UHGV virus genome: UHGV-0136979
Strand: one strand, 5' to 3'
DNA from: a virus
Length of the DNA: 36,223 bases
The translations under genes and the position numbers were made by a program. Shown here piece after piece: positions 1 through 31,968 of this stretch. Position 1 is the stretch's first letter, and each line of letters opens with the position of its first letter. The notes under the pieces are model-generated. The model searched no databases. It had not been told where the DNA came from and saw only the letters and a program-made list of their open reading frames with translations.

Positions 1-49
1 TGTTTTAGGGGCGTTTATTACTGTCTTTTTTATTAAAGGAGCTCAGGTA

Positions 50-292
50 ATGTATACCTATAAAATGATTCAGGTGCCGCCGAATATTTCTGTAAAAGCC
101 AAGGATAATAAGTCTGGTGTAGCTGCTGCATATCTTCAGGGGGTGGTCAATGAGCAGGCTGCTGAAGGTTGGGAGTTTCAGCGAGTTGATACCATTGGTA
201 TTGAAGAGCAGCCAGGATGTTTCAATGGAGGAAAGGTACAGGTTTTCCAGTACTATGTGATTACTTTTCGAAAAAAAGTGCCAGATGCTTAA
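50..292 (+). CDS. small protein of unknown function (DUF4177-like by eye); flanking or cargo gene
   Basis: 80-aa track ORF; AGGAG about 9 nt upstream of the ATG at 50; 8-nt overlap with the next ORF suggests an operon. Family assignment is from memory only. Confidence 0.5.
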   Translation: MYTYKMIQVPPNISVKAKDNKSGVAAAYLQGVVNEQAAEGWEFQRVDTIGIEEQPGCFNGGKVQVFQYYVITFRKKVPDA

Positions 293-518
293 ATGGGTTA
301 GTATTCGCCTGATTCTTTATTATCGCGCCCATGCGCCAGCAAGAATTCGTAACAGATGTCGTTATACTCCAAGCTGCTCAGCTTATACTTTGATTGCAAT
401 AAGGCGCTTTGGTTTTTTTGAAGGGTGGCGATTAGGCTTGAACCGGATTTATCGCTGTCGTCCGCCTAATGGTGGTGCTGATTATCCCCCGCATATTTGT
501 AAATATCGCAAATCGTGA
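285..518 (+). CDS. YidD-family small protein (putative membrane protein insertion efficiency factor-like)
   Basis: 77-aa track ORF with the RYTPSCSAY motif resembling the conserved Cys/Thr-Pro-x-Cys-S-x-Y core of YidD proteins; followed by an intrinsic terminator. Confidence 0.55.
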   Translation: MLKWVSIRLILYYRAHAPARIRNRCRYTPSCSAYTLIAIRRFGFFEGWRLGLNRIYRCRPPNGGADYPPHICKYRKS

Positions 519-533
519 GTGCGCAGGAAAAAG

Positions 534-568
534 AAAACCCGCAGTTTTTACGCTGCGGGTTTGTTGTT
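534..568. terminator. bidirectional rho-independent terminator
   Basis: Stem CCCGCAG (538..544) / CTGCGGG (553..559), loop TTTTTACG, flanked by an A-run upstream and TTTGTTGTT downstream; sits between convergent yidD-like (+) and hok-like (-) ORFs. Confidence 0.6.
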
Positions 569-647
569 CATGTCTGTGAGATAGGGTGCCACTTCAGCCA
601 ACCTTAGCAACCGATTGACGGGGGATCGCTCCCCCGTCGCGGTTTCC

Positions 648-788
648 TTACTGCTTACACTGTAAGAACGCCGCAAACTCCGCTCCCCAGAAGCTCATCC
701 GTATTTCACACAGCGAACCGTGCAGCATCCAGATGATGAGGATTGCCGTCACGCAGAACGTGATGGCCGTAAGCGATTTTTGCGACAT
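648..788 (-). CDS. Hok/Gef-family type I toxin-like small membrane peptide (46 aa), not in the ORF track
   Basis: Own translation: MSQKSLTAITFCVTAILIIWMLHGSLCEIRMSFWGAEFAAFLQCKQ. N-terminal hydrophobic helix plus the SLCEIR and E-x-AAFL-x-CK motifs recalled from HokA/Hok/HokE. GGAG lies 8 nt upstream of the ATG at 788 inside a possible CTCC/GGAG hairpin; a perfect 9-bp-stem hairpin (617..638) follows the stop. Confidence 0.6.
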   Translation of the reverse strand: MSQKSLTAITFCVTAILIIWMLHGSLCEIRMSFWGAEFAAFLQCKQ

Positions 789-979
789 AGCGCTTGCTCC
801 TTTGTTGGAGAGGCGCTAACCTATCACTTGCTTAAGGTAGATATGTTAGGGCCTCGGTTAAACAGAAATGTTTTCCGGGGCCTTTCCACATCTGGCCTTC
901 AGGTATTCCCTCCGACCATCAGCCGAAAGGCACCCGCGCGTAATCTAACGCTTTTTTGTTACTCCGGCAATTCTGCCTG

Positions 980-1240
980 TTAATTCTGAGGTAAAGGTAA
1001 GCTCATCTGATTGTTTCCCCTGTGTGAAGCTGGTAGCTCATGCCACGGGATACCTTCTGAAGAGTGAACGCCGGAGGCGTGTTTCGATGTGAATTTATGG
1101 AAAGCTTCCAGTGTTGAGAAGCATACGCCGCATTCCAGGTTGTTACACTGATAATACTTTTGCCGGACGGTGTTTGAATCATTTTCCGGGCGACTGGTGC
1201 GGATACGGGCAGACGCGCCACAAAGCGGACAACGAAACAT
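980..1240 (-). CDS. ogr: Ogr-type zinc-finger late transcription activator
   Basis: N-terminus MFRCPLCGASARIRTSR...YYQCNNLEC is the P2 Ogr/Delta Cys4 zinc-finger signature; position at the prophage end next to D is as in P2. The 86-aa track ORF is longer than P2 Ogr (about 72 aa), so the C-terminus is less certain. Confidence 0.85.
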   Translation of the reverse strand: MFRCPLCGASARIRTSRPENDSNTVRQKYYQCNNLECGVCFSTLEAFHKFTSKHASGVHSSEGIPWHELPASHRGNNQMSLPLPQN

Positions 1241-1597
1241 AGCAACCTCCCTTAATGTGGTGCTGTCGCTATTTTAAATTGTATTCGCAAATATGCAAAC
1301 TGACCGTCAGGTCAGTTTGAGGAACGGGCGTTTAATCATTAATAAAAATGTTCTCTGATGTTATTTATTATCTTGCCATTGTCAAATGATGATCTAATGA
1401 CTAATTATAACAAAAGAGTCTGTACATTATTTATATGTTTTGATAACTAGGTGTTTTTATATATTTATAGATTTAAAATATCATATAAAAATGTGTGTTA
1501 TAAAATCATCTGGTTTGAGTGAAAGGGCAGGAGGTGGATTTTTTCTGCCCTTTAATAATATAGTGCTAATGGAAACAATATCTATATACGAGTTATT

Positions 1598-2356
1598 CTA
1601 CTCTCTGTAAAATTCTGCGTGTAAAATTGAGGCCAGTGCTGATGGGTTTTCCCATGACATGGAATGTCCTGCTTTTGGCACTATTGCAACAGATATTCCT
1701 GATTCTTTTATATGCTGGAAATCATTGTCTGGCAATGATTGTTCGCCGAAAATTAGTGTACGTGAACAGGGCAGATTAAGGAAGATATCTCTCCATGATG
1801 GAGTGGCTCCATCAACCAGACTTTTGGCTCCTCGCCATATTGCCCATGGGGCTGCATTCTGGAGTTCACCTTTCCATGGGGATGTCTCTTGCTCCAGTAA
1901 TTCATCGTATATGTGTGAGATAAACTCTGCTTCTGGTTTCTCTATTATCTTACGACTATATGTACCTCCACCAGAGTGAAAATTAGGTTCAGAAACTACA
2001 AGCTTTCTTGTTCGTTCATGTAGTTGTCTGGCTACTTCAATCGCAATACTTCCTCCCATACTGTGACCATAAATATGGAACTGTGAGAGATTTAATGTTT
2101 CTACTACTTCAATAACAACTTTAGCTTGATGGGATATGCTGTAATCGAATCTTTTAGGCTTATCACTAAACCCATATCCAGGGAGATCTATCAATATTGC
2201 TCGTTGTCCACCAAATGCAGGGTCTGCAACAACCCGTGGATATTCATAAGAAGAAGAACAGCCAAGCCCATGAATAAAAATAACAGGAATACCCTGACCA
2301 GGTAAATCATGCCAACGTACATTTGCTCCGGCAATTAAAGAAAACAAACTGAACAT
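1598..2356 (-). CDS. alpha/beta-fold hydrolase (esterase-like; BioH/YbfF-like by eye), cargo gene
   Basis: 252 aa; HGLG oxyanion region, GHSMGG nucleophile elbow and C-terminal AGHSMSWENP histidine region; AT-rich flanks (1241..1597, 2357..2482) contrast with the phage backbone. Confidence 0.8.
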   Translation of the reverse strand: MFSLFSLIAGANVRWHDLPGQGIPVIFIHGLGCSSSYEYPRVVADPAFGGQRAILIDLPGYGFSDKPKRFDYSISHQAKVVIEVVETLNLSQFHIYGHSMGGSIAIEVARQLHERTRKLVVSEPNFHSGGGTYSRKIIEKPEAEFISHIYDELLEQETSPWKGELQNAAPWAIWRGAKSLVDGATPSWRDIFLNLPCSRTLIFGEQSLPDNDFQHIKESGISVAIVPKAGHSMSWENPSALASILHAEFYRE

Positions 2357-2482
2357 AATATGTACCTTTGCTTTTTCTTACAGGTATAACCTGTAACTCT
2401 GACTGTAAAGGATCTTCTATCCTTGTTCTTGCCTCGCTGTATCCAGAGAGTTTTTGTATATTAAATTAAACACCGAAGTTGC

Positions 2483-3592
2483 TCACTCTGTTTCTGCTAT
2501 CCATTCCGGGATTTTTGCTTCAAGCTCAAGCTGCGTGGTAAAACCGCTGTTATCAATGGTGTGCTCGGCTTTTGCAATAATCCAGTCCTGATTATCAATC
2601 TCGCTTTTAAATCCTGTTACCGTGCCATGCATTTCGGGGTAGAGTTCTGCGCGTCCGCGTGCCAGTGTGATGGAGAATGATGCGGCTCCGCGTTGTAGCT
2701 GCTGCCACTTTGCCGCCGCTGCGCGTCTTGCTGCCTGCTCGTTCTGATAAGTCTTGCGTAACACAAACACATTGCCTTCCGCACCTTCCATATAATCACC
2801 TTCACGGCTGCTGCTTTTCTCCTTTTTGGGTTTTGGCGGTTTGCGGCGTTTCACGCTGACTTTTTTCTTTTTCCCGTAATTAAGATCAAGCCAGTAAGCG
2901 CGTACCCCCGTATACGCTTCGCGGTCAGCAATGCGGAACTGATGTCGATCGCCACTGCTGCGCGTGATGGCGAACGAGGGCAACGGCTGGCCCTGCGCGT
3001 TCACGCCACCGCCTGGCATGATGAATAACAGATTACCGCTTTTTACCGTGGTGATTGCGCCCAGCATTTCCGCCATGCGCGTAAGGAAGGACATGTCGCT
3101 TTCTTCAGTCTGGTCGGCGTGGTCGATTTCGATATCCATCAGCATTTCGCTGATTTGCGGTTTCAGACCGTACCGATGAGCGATGGCGGATACCACGCGC
3201 TCAACGGTCACATCATGCCAGGACACTTCACGTTTAACGTTAAATTCATCCCGAAAATCTGCGCTTCTGGCTGAAACAGTCAGCCTGTCCGGCGGTCCTT
3301 CGTGTGCGATTTCATCAACAATGTAAGAGCCTTTTTCTGTCAGCGGTTCTCCTTTCCAGCCAATGAGAACCGTCAGGCGCGCGCCCCGTGGCGGTAGCTG
3401 CAACTGACCATCCGCATCATCCAGCGTGATGGTGAGCTGGTCCGCTTCAAATCCCCGGTTGTCGGTCAGTGACAGACTCATCAGGCGCTCTGCCACGCCG
3501 GACAGCCTTTTCCCCTCCGCGAGAATATCAAAATCCGGCATTTTCACGGGGTCTGTGCTTTGACTGAGCAATTGCATGGTGGTGTCGGTCAT
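2483..3592 (-). CDS. D: tail protein D (late control gene D family)
   Basis: 369 aa (P2 gpD is about 387 aa); lysine-rich central linker; strong RBS GGGAGGGA upstream of the ATG at 3592. Recognised by resemblance to gpD. Confidence 0.85.
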   Translation of the reverse strand: MTDTTMQLLSQSTDPVKMPDFDILAEGKRLSGVAERLMSLSLTDNRGFEADQLTITLDDADGQLQLPPRGARLTVLIGWKGEPLTEKGSYIVDEIAHEGPPDRLTVSARSADFRDEFNVKREVSWHDVTVERVVSAIAHRYGLKPQISEMLMDIEIDHADQTEESDMSFLTRMAEMLGAITTVKSGNLLFIMPGGGVNAQGQPLPSFAITRSSGDRHQFRIADREAYTGVRAYWLDLNYGKKKKVSVKRRKPPKPKKEKSSSREGDYMEGAEGNVFVLRKTYQNEQAARRAAAAKWQQLQRGAASFSITLARGRAELYPEMHGTVTGFKSEIDNQDWIIAKAEHTIDNSGFTTQLELEAKIPEWIAETE

Positions 3593-31415: not shown

Positions 31416-31646
31416 TTAATGGAGTTTGTTTTGCTGCTGGATGAGATCCTGAAGAGACAGGAGGTCTTCCGCCAGATAGCTGAATACAGCGGCGCAGTAG
31501 TCGGCTGAAATAGTGCTGTTGAGTCTGTGCAATGTGTTGGATTGCATGATAAAGGCGACGTGTGCAGCGCGGGTGAGTCTGCGATCGATTTCAGTCTGGA
31601 TGTGACGACGCTCCGCGATAGCGCGGTGCTGTTTGCGGTCTGCCAT
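31416..31646 (-). CDS. hypothetical early protein
   Basis: 76-aa track ORF; no motif recognised. Confidence 0.4.
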   Translation of the reverse strand: MADRKQHRAIAERRHIQTEIDRRLTRAAHVAFIMQSNTLHRLNSTISADYCAAVFSYLAEDLLSLQDLIQQQNKLH

Positions 31647-31691: not shown

Positions 31692-31877
31692 GTTGAGAAT
31701 CTCGGGGTGGCGAGACGTACAGGGTTCTCAACACCGGAGAGCAAAGAATCCGGCCCGACCGAAGTCGGCCCCGTACGCCCCGCCATAATTCTGACGCGAA
31801 AAAGACGTGGCAATACAGTACGCACAAAAAAACCGCTTGCGCGGTTATGCGCTTTGCTCTGTATCGGGTTGAGAATC
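31692..31877. repeat. three copies of GTTGAGAA(T/C)C (two direct, one inverted) in a 320-bp non-coding early-region segment
   Basis: GTTGAGAATC at 31692..31701 and 31868..31877; inverted copy GTTCTCAAC at 31724..31732. Confidence 0.55.
31824..31846 (-). terminator. rho-independent terminator on the - strand within the early region
   Basis: On the - strand: AACCGC-GCAA-GCGGTT followed by TTTTTTTGTG. Confidence 0.55.
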
Positions 31878-31968
31878 CCGGCACCAGTTTTATGAGGTGC
31901 AGCGGAAATGTAACCTGACCGATTGAGGCATGGCAAGCGGTTTTTTTGTGTGTGCATGTTCTGGTTTC

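What the first reader, a model, noticed from the sequence alone, without database searches (positions are those of the whole stretch)
600..980. Untracked Hok-family type I toxin gene at the prophage/chromosome junction
A 46-codon - strand ORF (648..788), below the track size cutoff, encodes a peptide with the Hok/Gef signature. Its Shine-Dalgarno sits in a possible CTCC/GGAG hairpin, a GC-rich 9-bp-stem hairpin and a bidirectional terminator lie downstream, and the upstream leader (789..980) could hold the antisense RNA gene. Such modules can stabilise mobile DNA or cause abortive infection.
Basis: partly seen in the sequence, partly recalled or inferred. Interest (0 to 1): 0.6.

Follow-up and report, generated by a model that had tools for sequence, protein, structure and literature searches.

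The report
Known Hok/Sok toxin locus in prophage
The small gene is a real Hok membrane toxin with its folded mRNA and probable antisense RNA antidote, carried near the end of a P2-like prophage, but the same locus is already annotated in about 1,500 E. coli genomes and the identical peptide has already been cloned and tested for toxicity, so it is ordinary.

Summary
ORF 648..788(-) encodes a 46-aa Hok/Gef peptide (Pfam PF01848, 29.9 bits against a cut-off of 22; PHROG 251, 80.6 bits). The SD hairpin, the 9-bp GC hairpin and the bidirectional terminator are all present.

The whole hok mRNA (about 935 to 530, minus strand) is recognisable:
- A 5'-3' end pairing (tac/fbi) is supported by compensatory changes across 19 homologous loci.
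- A Sok-like antisense gene is predicted at about 830..886(+).

None of this is new:
- The window is a P88-like (Xuanwuvirus) prophage, and phage P88 already annotates this CDS.
- The 413-nt locus occurs in 1552 of 5426 complete E. coli genomes, annotated "Hok/Gef family protein".
- The identical peptide is entry 72_1621 in a 2025-26 Hok survey. It was cloned there and, by that paper's text, is toxic.

- The locus is not at the chromosome junction. Prophage DNA runs at least 112 nt beyond window position 1, and two cargo genes lie between hok and att.
- No mok reading frame overlaps hok here, and none is conserved in this subfamily. This is the only mildly unusual feature.

Verdict: already known, low interest.

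The parts
965..970 (-). Predicted hok promoter -35 hexamer, TTGCCG
   Evidence: Read from the sequence. It lies 17 nt from the -10 hexamer and starts 10 nt after the ogr stop codon (982..980). It is not conserved in other genomic contexts. Inference.
942..947 (-). Predicted hok promoter -10 hexamer, TAGATT
   Evidence: TAGATT or TAGAAT is conserved in 17 of 20 aligned loci, at a fixed distance from the conserved 5' GGGUGCC. The pair of hexamers scores 8 of 12, below the 9 of 12 that the consensus scan requires, so the scan did not call it. Inference.
530..935 (-). Predicted full-length hok mRNA (about 406 nt)
   Evidence: The 5' end is placed by the Rfam RF01794 match starting at 935 and by the spacing from the -10 hexamer. 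The 3' end is placed by the intrinsic terminator. MFE -177.4 kcal/mol, z -8.99. The ends have not been mapped experimentally.
924..935 (-). 5' end-pairing element (tac-like): GGGUGCC 935..929 and UCG 926..924
   Evidence: It pairs with 584..596. RNAalifold predicted this long-range helix unprompted. Three of three pairs in the inner part show compensatory changes, and 95-100% of cells are paired.
584..596 (-). 3' fold-back inhibition element (fbi-like): GGCACCC 590..584 and 596..594
   Evidence: Partner of the 5' element.
832..891 (-). 19-codon upstream ORF (ATG 891, TAA 834..832); not a conserved mok
   Evidence: Its ATG is absent from the Salmonella and Klebsiella homologues, and its length varies between 15, 19 and 79 codons. 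It almost coincides with the Sok-complementary stretch.
850..882 (-). Leader hairpin GGCCCCGG...CCGAGGCC; on the other strand this is the Sok stem-loop
   Evidence: helix 5, 98% paired, 2 pairs with compensatory change.
810..855 (-). Alternative long hairpin GAGGC...GCCUC (the Sok-target stem-loop of the Rfam model), mutually exclusive with the SD hairpin
   Evidence: It matches the Rfam RF01794 consensus structure. Every intact homologue folds into it (-17 to -20 kcal/mol) although the inner stem sequences differ.
788..818 (-). SD-sequestering hairpin (UAGCGC/GCGCUA outer stem, CUCC/GGAG inner stem); SD AAGGAG at 802..797
   Evidence: helix 6, 99% paired, only G-U-compatible changes; z -3.99.
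648..788 (-). hok coding sequence, 46 aa
   Evidence: dN/dS is 0.12-0.41 against diverged homologues. The peptide is identical to 72_1621 of the Hok survey.
670..786 (-). Long-range helix inside the coding region: GUCGCAAA 786..779 and 776..773 pair with 683..670 (in the Glu-Phe-Ala-Ala codons)
   Evidence: helix 7, 12 pairs, 100% paired, 4 pairs with G-U-type changes and none compensatory. Protein coding constrains these columns, so this is weak evidence.
609..644 (-). Post-stop GC-rich hairpin (9-bp inner stem 638..630 with 625..617; outer stem AACCG with CGGUU)
   Evidence: (helices 11 and 12).
535..562 (.). Bidirectional intrinsic terminator: ends hok mRNA on the minus strand and the YidD-like gene on the plus strand
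   Evidence: called on both strands. Seven of its eight pairs show compensatory changes (helix 13). Homology to other P2-like prophages stops at 528.
794..822 (+). Predicted Sok promoter: -35 TTGCTC 794..799, 17-nt spacer, -10 TAACCT 817..822
   Evidence: Read from the sequence. It has the same position and layout as TTGCCT-N17-TAACCA of sokW, deduced from the primers of PMC8621323 Table 2. It matches the consensus poorly (3+3 of 12) and the scan did not call it. Inference.
830..886 (+). Predicted Sok-like antisense RNA (about 57-64 nt): 18-nt single-stranded 5' tail, a stem-loop of 10 + 5 bp, then UUUC
   Evidence: -21.5 kcal/mol, z -3.47. The ends are inferred from the promoter spacing and the hairpin, and the short U-tract makes the 3' end uncertain (886-893). 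No expression data.
980..1240 (-). Context: ogr/Delta late-gene activator directly upstream, with no terminator before hok
   Evidence: Pfam PF04606, 52.4 bits; one search finds no terminator in 936..980.

Best explanation
This is a hok/sok-type type I toxin-antitoxin locus. It belongs to the 46-aa Hok subfamily ('cluster 72' of the 2025-26 Hok survey). It sits as cargo after ogr in the right arm of a P88-like (P2-family) prophage.

Shown here:
- The peptide is a Hok/Gef family member under purifying selection.
- The roughly 406-nt mRNA is exceptionally structured.
- Its 5' end pairs with a 3' element just upstream of the terminator. This is the same end-pairing (tac/fbi) layout as hok of plasmid R1.
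- The SD and the A of the AUG sit in a conserved hairpin.
- The opposite strand can encode a roughly 60-nt RNA with a single-stranded 5' tail and a stable stem-loop, behind a promoter-like TTGCTC-N17-TAACCT.

Inferred by analogy with R1 hok/sok and hokW-sokW:
- The full-length mRNA is stable and is closed to both translation and antisense binding.
- Slow 3' trimming removes the fbi element, and the 5' end then refolds locally.
- The unstable Sok RNA pairs with the leader (830..886) and the duplex is cut by RNase III.
- When Sok is no longer made (prophage loss, host transcription shut-off, or induction), Hok is translated, inserts into the inner membrane and collapses the membrane potential.

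No mok frame overlaps hok here. Sok therefore probably acts through duplex-triggered decay, or by blocking the alternative GAGGC...GCCUC hairpin that would open the SD hairpin, rather than through mok-coupled translation.

The biological role is undecided between prophage stabilisation, exclusion of other phages, and help with lysis after induction.
For: Peptide:
- Pfam PF01848 above its cut-off; PHROG 251 at E 1.3e-22.
- 67 homologues, named Hok/Gef wherever the source gives a name.
- dN/dS 0.12-0.41.
- Identical peptide 72_1621 was cloned (LRP137). The paper states that 42 of 45 tested homologues were toxic, and 72_1621 is not among the three named non-toxic ones.

RNA:
- Rfam RF01794 gives a full-length match at 778..935(-), E 3.2e-9.
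- RNAalifold on 19 loci finds the 5'-3' end pairing and the SD, post-stop and terminator hairpins.
- 96.9% of cells are paired. 21 pairs change on both sides, against 11.5 +/- 1.9 in shuffles (0 of 500 reach it) and 3-6 in slid controls.
- Full-length MFE z -8.99.
- The truncated RNA refolds its 5' end into a local hairpin.
- The Sok fold has z -3.5.
- The alternative hairpin is kept in all intact homologues.

Related systems and context:
- hokW-sokW has been shown experimentally to be a type I TA system that depends on RNase III and Hfq.
- The same locus sits at the same place after ogr in many P2-like prophages.
Against: - The Rfam match is below the gathering score (46.9 against 59).
- NCBIfam HokA and Hok models are far below their cut-offs (34 against 89), so this is a distinct subfamily.
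- The Sok promoter hexamers are weak (3 of 6 each) and the scan does not call them. The Sok U-tract is only 3 nt.
- There are no transcript data for this subfamily.
- A defining R1 feature, the overlapping mok frame, is absent.
- Thermodynamic folding of the 3'-truncated RNA does not by itself open the SD hairpin, so the activation step is not reproduced in silico.
- Much of the covariation splits along one Escherichia/Salmonella divide, so it reflects few independent events.
Confidence: 0.88

Rival explanations
1. Role rival 1: a prophage addiction (post-segregational killing) module. Cells that lose or excise the P88-like prophage lose the short-lived Sok, keep the stable hok mRNA, and die. 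This stabilises lysogeny.
For: The subfamily sits repeatedly as the last gene before att at the edge of different mobile elements: P2-like prophages, lambdoid prophages, and next to a relaxase on a putative plasmid. The mRNA layout is that of the R1 killer system. The Hok survey finds hok enriched in prophages.
Against: No experiment on any member of this subfamily. In the one prophage hok/sok studied, deleting hokW-sokW did not affect growth under normal conditions and the reported role was in lysis. Chromosomal single-copy loss is rare.
Confidence: 0.35
2. Role rival 2: a lysis helper during prophage induction, as shown for hokW-sokW of Sp5. Sok disappears after induction, Hok is made before holin and endolysin, and phage release rises.
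For: hokW-sokW: sokW RNA vanishes after mitomycin C, HokW appears about 1 h before the endolysin, and released phage halves in the deletion mutant. Here hok lies directly downstream of the late activator ogr with no terminator between them, so read-through could raise hok mRNA during lytic growth. The window carries a derepression-protein module, and its close relative P88 was obtained by induction.
Against: HokW belongs to a different Hok cluster (cluster 35, HokD-like) and sits in a lambdoid phage. No data for P2-like phages. Read-through is inferred only.
Confidence: 0.25
3. Role rival 3: abortive-infection defence. A superinfecting phage shuts off host transcription, Sok decays, and Hok kills the cell before the invader completes its cycle.
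For: The hok/sok papers read here cite phage defence as a reported role of plasmid hok/sok. P2-family phages are known, from my own knowledge, to carry defence morons at variable loci.
Against: The Hok survey found no enrichment of hok near defence systems (section heading). No test of this subfamily.
Confidence: 0.2
4. Rival on identity: an inactive, decaying hok remnant or an orphan toxin gene without a working antisense RNA.
For: Weak Sok promoter hexamers and no mok frame. Some copies elsewhere (L102, L103) are clearly decaying, with a mutated 5' element and dN/dS 0.69.
Against: The ORF is intact. All RNA elements are intact and conserved, with compensatory changes. The locus is at 90-99% identity in more than 1500 genomes. 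dN/dS is 0.12-0.41. The identical peptide was tested for toxicity and is not among the three named non-toxic sequences. A constitutively expressed toxin without an antidote would not be tolerated.
Confidence: 0.05

Closest known systems
Hok 'cluster 72' (entry 72_1621) of Escalera-Maurer et al., bioRxiv 10.1101/2025.08.07.668861; same CDS as phage P88 SF19_gp52 and the RefSeq 'Hok/Gef family protein' entries
   Same: The peptide is 100% identical to 72_1621. Phage P88 DNA is 98.5% identical across 520..1000, and its gp52 differs by one residue. The position after ogr in P2-like prophages is the same.
   Different: Nothing essential. In this window two extra cargo genes (DUF4177 and a YidD paralogue) follow hok, as in P88, whereas in most prophages hok is the last gene before att.
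hok/sok of plasmid R1 (parB), the type I TA paradigm
   Same: Hok/Gef peptide with the SLCEIR...E.AAF core. An mRNA of about 400 nt with 5'-3' end pairing, an fbi element just upstream of the terminator, a hairpin after the stop codon, and an antisense gene in the leader whose RNA has a 5' tail and a stem-loop.
   Different: Only 30% peptide identity; 46 aa against 52 aa; an extra C-terminal Cys in LQCKQ. No overlapping mok frame. Located in a prophage, not a plasmid. The Rfam model scores below its threshold.
hokW-sokW of Stx2 prophage Sp5 / 933W (PMC8621323)
   Same: A prophage-borne hok/sok locus. The Sok promoter layout TTGC..-N17-TAACC. occupies the equivalent position. The Sok complementarity lies in the 5' UTR (71 nt in sokW).
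   Different: HokW is 51 aa and belongs to the HokD-like cluster 35. Its leader carries an AUG in the position of the R1 mok start (my reading of the primer sequences), which this locus lacks. Stx2 phages carry a separate copy of the 46-aa subfamily next to lom, 83% identical in DNA to this one.

Membership tests
Hok/Gef toxin family (Pfam PF01848) | Peptide matches the family profile above the curated threshold | tested here: met
   29.9 bits against a cut-off of 22, covering profile positions 5-42 of 42. PHROG 251 at 80.6 bits.
Hok/Gef toxin family (Pfam PF01848) | Small (about 45-55 aa) peptide with an N-terminal hydrophobic helix and the conserved Cys-Glu core | tested here: met
   46 aa, with the hydrophobic stretch AITFCVTAILIIWML. 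C27, E28 and E37 are invariant across 16 aligned sequences, including R1 Hok.
Hok/Gef toxin family (Pfam PF01848) | Toxic to E. coli on overexpression | not testable with these tools
   From the literature only. The identical peptide 72_1621 was cloned, and the text says all tested homologues were toxic except 19_179, 60_1482 and 69_1540. The figure itself was not seen.
HokA equivalog (NCBIfam NF007290) | Score above the equivalog cut-off | tested here: not met
   34 bits against a cut-off of 89. It is not HokA, nor any of HokA to HokE; it is a separate subfamily.
[quoted passage not shown] | Highly structured mRNA of about 400 nt whose 5' end pairs with a 3' fbi element | tested here: met
   The long-range helix has 3 of 3 compensatory pairs in its inner part, and the full-length fold has z -8.99.
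[quoted passage not shown] | Match to the Rfam hok-leader/sok model RF01794 at the gathering score | tested here: not met
   46.9 bits against GA 59. The match is full-length (model positions 1-157) with E 3.2e-9 on 851 nt.
[quoted passage not shown] | Cis-encoded antisense RNA (Sok) with its own promoter, complementary to the mRNA leader | tested here: inconclusive
   A promoter-like TTGCTC-N17-TAACCT and a tail-plus-hairpin RNA are present and are positionally homologous to sokW. The hexamers are weak, the scan does not call them, and there are no expression data.
[quoted passage not shown] | Overlapping mok reading frame whose translation is coupled to hok | tested here: not met
   No ORF starting with ATG, GTG, TTG, CTG, ATT, ATC or ATA overlaps the hok start in the window, P88, the Stx-phage copy, L005 or L006, and none is conserved across the 19 loci.
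[quoted passage not shown] | Activation by 3' exonucleolytic processing; RNase III cleavage of the Sok-mRNA duplex | not testable with these tools
   Modelling only. Removing the 3' 70 nt lets the 5' end refold locally.

The most novel reading that the evidence does not exclude
The 46-aa 'cluster 72' Hok subfamily, this locus included, may be a mok-independent variant of hok/sok. With no reading frame overlapping hok, the antisense RNA would control the toxin only through RNA structure and decay. It could lock the SD hairpin (818..788) by preventing the alternative GAGGC...GCCUC hairpin (855..810), and it could trigger RNase III cleavage. In the Escherichia branch, a short non-overlapping uORF (891..832) that coincides with the Sok target might act as a distant substitute for mok.
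Probability: 0.4. Interest if true: 0.35.

Novelty: already known. Interest (0 to 1): 0.12.

Why it matters
The finding adds little. It confirms that small type I toxin genes fall below size cut-offs in gene tracks and are worth recovering. It also shows that gene-boundary prophage trimming can cut off their regulatory 3' UTRs. The one point that could interest specialists is that this very common prophage-borne Hok subfamily has no mok frame. That would make it a convenient natural case for asking how Sok can control Hok without translational coupling. The role of hok/sok in P2-like prophages (stabilisation, exclusion or lysis timing) is still untested.

Tried and rejected
- Rfam at gathering thresholds found nothing in 1..3000. 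Only the permissive search gave the sok/hok-leader match. The other permissive hits (Leu, Thr and Trp leaders at 528..606) are just the terminator hairpin and were rejected.
- The consensus promoter scan did not call either the proposed hok or the proposed Sok promoter. They rest on position and homology only.
- I looked for att direct repeats between the two window ends and found none of 11 nt or more. The window ends inside the prophage on the left and about 50 nt after int on the right, so the junction had to be located in a complete genome.
- I looked for mok in all frames with seven possible start codons and found none conserved. An in-frame N-terminal extension of Hok is excluded by the TAG at 819..817.
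- The MAFFT columns of the alternative hairpin were not in structural register, so I did not count pairs on them. I folded each homologue separately instead.
- Folding the 3'-truncated mRNA did not open the SD hairpin, so the activation step could not be modelled.
- The IMG/VR scan returned only 100%-identical copies, which were useless for covariation. Diversity came from the look-up of encoding contigs.
- The genome-contig hits labelled Planococcaceae, Vagococcus and Xanthomonas are 72-98% identical to enterobacterial copies and are probably contamination. I did not use L004 or L008.

Full report
**1. The observation**

The minus-strand ORF 648..788 is real. It has an ATG start and encodes 46 aa: MSQKSLTAITFCVTAILIIWMLHGSLCEIRMSFWGAEFAAFLQCKQ.
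- It matches Pfam HOK_GEF above the curated cut-off (29.9 against 22 bits, E 4.1e-7).
- It matches PHROG 251, 'MokW-like host killing' (80.6 bits).
- NCBIfam's HokA and generic Hok models are hit only far below their cut-offs (34 against 89 bits). It is therefore a Hok family member but none of the named K-12 paralogues.

- The SD AAGGAG (802..797) lies 8 nt before the AUG, and its GGAG pairs with CUCC 810..807. This sits inside an outer stem, UAGCGC 818..813 with GCGCUA 793..788 (z -3.99).
- A 9-bp GC stem lies at 638..630 with 625..617 (z -4.68).
- A terminator at 535..562 is called on both strands.

**2. Where the window comes from, and the 'junction'**

The window is colinear, in reverse orientation, with almost the whole genome of Escherichia phage P88 (Xuanwuvirus, Peduoviridae, P2-like). 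Window 1..1280 matches P88 35716..34436 at 97.4%, and window 33933..36221 matches P88 2348..60. P88 was obtained by induction from E. coli K88.

The gene order on the minus strand is gpD (2483..3592), an alpha/beta-hydrolase insertion (1598..2356), ogr (980..1240), then hok. Two plus-strand cargo genes follow: a DUF4177 protein (50..292) and a YidD paralogue (285..518).

In E. coli FAM21845 the same prophage lies next to ytfP. There, P88-homologous DNA continues 112 nt to the left of window position 1 before it diverges. The window therefore contains no chromosome, and hok is about 760 nt inside the prophage end.

In most P2-like prophages, homology to this window stops at position 528, exactly at the end of the hok terminator, and core genes such as ihfA follow. 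Only 18 of 5426 genomes carry the DUF4177/YidD segment.

**3. What it is**

*The peptide.* A search of 5.8 billion proteins returned 67 relatives. Nearly all full-length ones are 46 aa, they come from Escherichia, Shigella, Salmonella and Klebsiella, and sources that name them call them 'Hok/Gef family protein'. Invariant residues include C27, E28 and E37, shared with R1 Hok. dN/dS against diverged homologues is 0.12-0.41.

*The RNA.* With permissive thresholds, the Rfam model RF01794 ('sok') matches 778..935 on the hok strand over its full length (46.9 bits, E 3.2e-9, below GA 59). The model consensus ends in an SD-like element followed by AUG, so in effect it describes the hok leader.

I aligned 19 loci from different contexts:
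- P2-like prophages of E. coli and Salmonella;
- a lambdoid Stx phage;
- a contig carrying a relaxase gene (probably a plasmid);
- tandem arrays in Salmonella;
- Klebsiella and E. albertii.

RNAalifold, unprompted, predicted the following:
- A long-range pairing of the 5' end (GGGUGCC 935..929 and 926..924) with a 3' element (590..584 and 596..594) just upstream of the terminator.
- The leader hairpin at 882..850.
- The SD hairpin.
- A helix between the first codons and the Glu-Phe-Ala-Ala codons.
- The post-stop hairpin and the terminator.

Pair counts support this structure.
- 96.9% of cells are paired.
- 21 pairs change on both sides, against 11.5 +/- 1.9 in shuffles (0 of 500 reach it) and 3-6 when partners are slid.
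- Compensatory changes occur in 3 of 3 pairs of the inner end-pairing helix, 5 of 9 of the post-stop stem and 7 of 8 of the terminator.
- Two caveats apply. The structure was derived from this same alignment. Much of the variation also splits along one Escherichia/Salmonella divide, so the number of independent events is small.

Folding results:
- The predicted 406-nt transcript folds at -177.4 kcal/mol, z -8.99.
- Without its last 70 nt, the 5' end refolds into a local hairpin, but the SD hairpin stays closed.
- All intact homologues can also form the alternative hairpin GAGGC...GCCUC (855..810) of the Rfam model, with different inner-stem sequences. This hairpin uses the 5' strand of the SD hairpin, so the two are mutually exclusive.

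*The antisense gene.* The plus strand has TTGCTC (794..799), a 17-nt spacer and TAACCT (817..822).
- An RNA starting near 830 would have an 18-nt single-stranded tail, then a stem-loop of 10 + 5 bp (850..882), then UUUC (z -3.5).
- The primers of the hokW-sokW paper imply a sokW promoter TTGCCT-N17-TAACCA at the equivalent position. Its -10 hexamer was the one mutated in their promoter-less construct (my reading of Table 2).
- The hexamers are weak, the consensus scan does not call them, and no transcript data exist. Sok is therefore predicted, not shown.

*The hok promoter.* It is likewise inferred: TTGCCG 970..965 and TAGATT 947..942. The -10 hexamer is conserved in the family, and the promoter starts right after the ogr stop codon.

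*No mok.* In R1, translation of hok depends on the overlapping mok frame.
- In the window, P88, the Stx-phage copy and two others, no ORF with any of seven start codons overlaps the hok start. None is conserved in the family.
- A 19-codon uORF (891..832) coincides with the Sok target. Its ATG is missing in Salmonella and Klebsiella, and its length varies. In E. albertii the same ATG opens a 79-codon frame that overlaps hok.

**4. How it most likely works**

Shown here: a Hok peptide under purifying selection, an mRNA with R1-type end pairing, and a sequestered SD.

Inferred from R1 and hokW-sokW:
- The full-length mRNA is stable and inert.
- 3' trimming removes the fbi element.
- The unstable Sok RNA pairs with 830..886 and the duplex is cleaved by RNase III.
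- Loss of Sok lets Hok be made, and Hok depolarises the inner membrane.

Without mok, I propose that Sok works by decay, by blocking the SD-opening alternative hairpin, or both. This is inference only.

Three roles remain open:
- Prophage addiction.
- Exclusion of other phages.
- Help with lysis after induction, as shown for hokW-sokW, where phage release halves in the deletion mutant. Read-through from ogr, which has no terminator before hok, would fit this role.

**5. Comparison with what is known, and novelty**

- Phage P88 already annotates this CDS (SF19_gp52, 'hok/gef family protein').
- The 413-nt locus occurs in 1552 of 5426 complete E. coli genomes, with up to 7 copies per genome. It was labelled 'Hok/Gef family protein' in all 11 listed hits covering most of the query. 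It also occurs in 34 plasmid records.
- The Hok survey (bioRxiv 10.1101/2025.08.07.668861) lists the identical peptide as 72_1621 in a high-abundance cluster. It was cloned as pAZ3-72_1621. The paper reports that 42 of 45 tested homologues were toxic, and the three named exceptions do not include it.
- HokW belongs to another cluster (cluster 35, HokD-like).
- The survey explicitly left Mok and Sok unanalysed. The absence of mok in this cluster may therefore be unreported, but it is a detail within a known system.

**6. Verdict**

The junction claim is corrected. The finding is already known. Interest 0.12.

Noticed in passing
window 31703..31900 (-), with ORF 31416..31646 (-): C4 antisense RNA (78.5 bits) and isrK (59.8 bits), both above their Rfam gathering scores, lie directly upstream of a 76-aa ORF that corresponds to the P88 'derepression protein'. 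This is a P1/P7-type c4-ant-like immunity module inside a P2-like phage. The P88 'hypothetical protein' gp13 CDS overlies these RNAs and is probably a mis-called gene.
   Followed up: partly
window 1281..2475; ORF 1598..2356 (-): A low-GC (0.29-0.44) insertion between gpD and ogr encodes a 252-aa alpha/beta-hydrolase (esterase/lipase-like, Pfam PF00561). It is absent from phage P88.
   Followed up: partly
window 50..518 (+): Two overlapping cargo genes lie between hok and the att end: a DUF4177 protein (below the Pfam cut-off; PHROG 12383) and a YidD paralogue (TIGR00278, 69 bits). This segment is found in only 18 of 5426 complete E. coli genomes.
   Followed up: partly
L095 3001..4487, L096 3001..4143, L099 3001..3631, L100 3001..3635: Salmonella chromosomes carry tandem arrays of two or three complete copies of this 46-aa hok subfamily, each with its own leader and terminator, next to DUF4875 and DUF1131 genes.
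   Followed up: partly
IMG/VR loci L014, L016, L020, L022 and about 50 others: More than half of the 80 IMG/VR contigs returned end exactly 3 nt after the hok stop codon. Gene-boundary trimming of predicted prophages therefore removes the hok 3' UTR (the fbi element and terminator) and understates the prophage end.
   Followed up: no
L007 2852..3285 (E. albertii); window 832..891: In the E. albertii copy, the ATG at -103 opens a 79-codon frame that overlaps hok (mok-like). In the window, the same ATG (891) stops after 19 codons at TAA 834..832.
   Followed up: partly
L102 and L103, 2852..3285: Two E. coli copies have a mutated 5' end-pairing element (GGACACC), an altered Sok hairpin region and dN/dS 0.69. 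They are probably decaying loci.
   Followed up: no
L004, L005, L008 (genome contigs): Copies 72-98% identical to this hok sit in assemblies labelled Planococcaceae, Vagococcus and Xanthomonas pisi. Two of the three (L004, L008) are short contigs. They are probably enterobacterial contamination or mislabelling.
   Followed up: no
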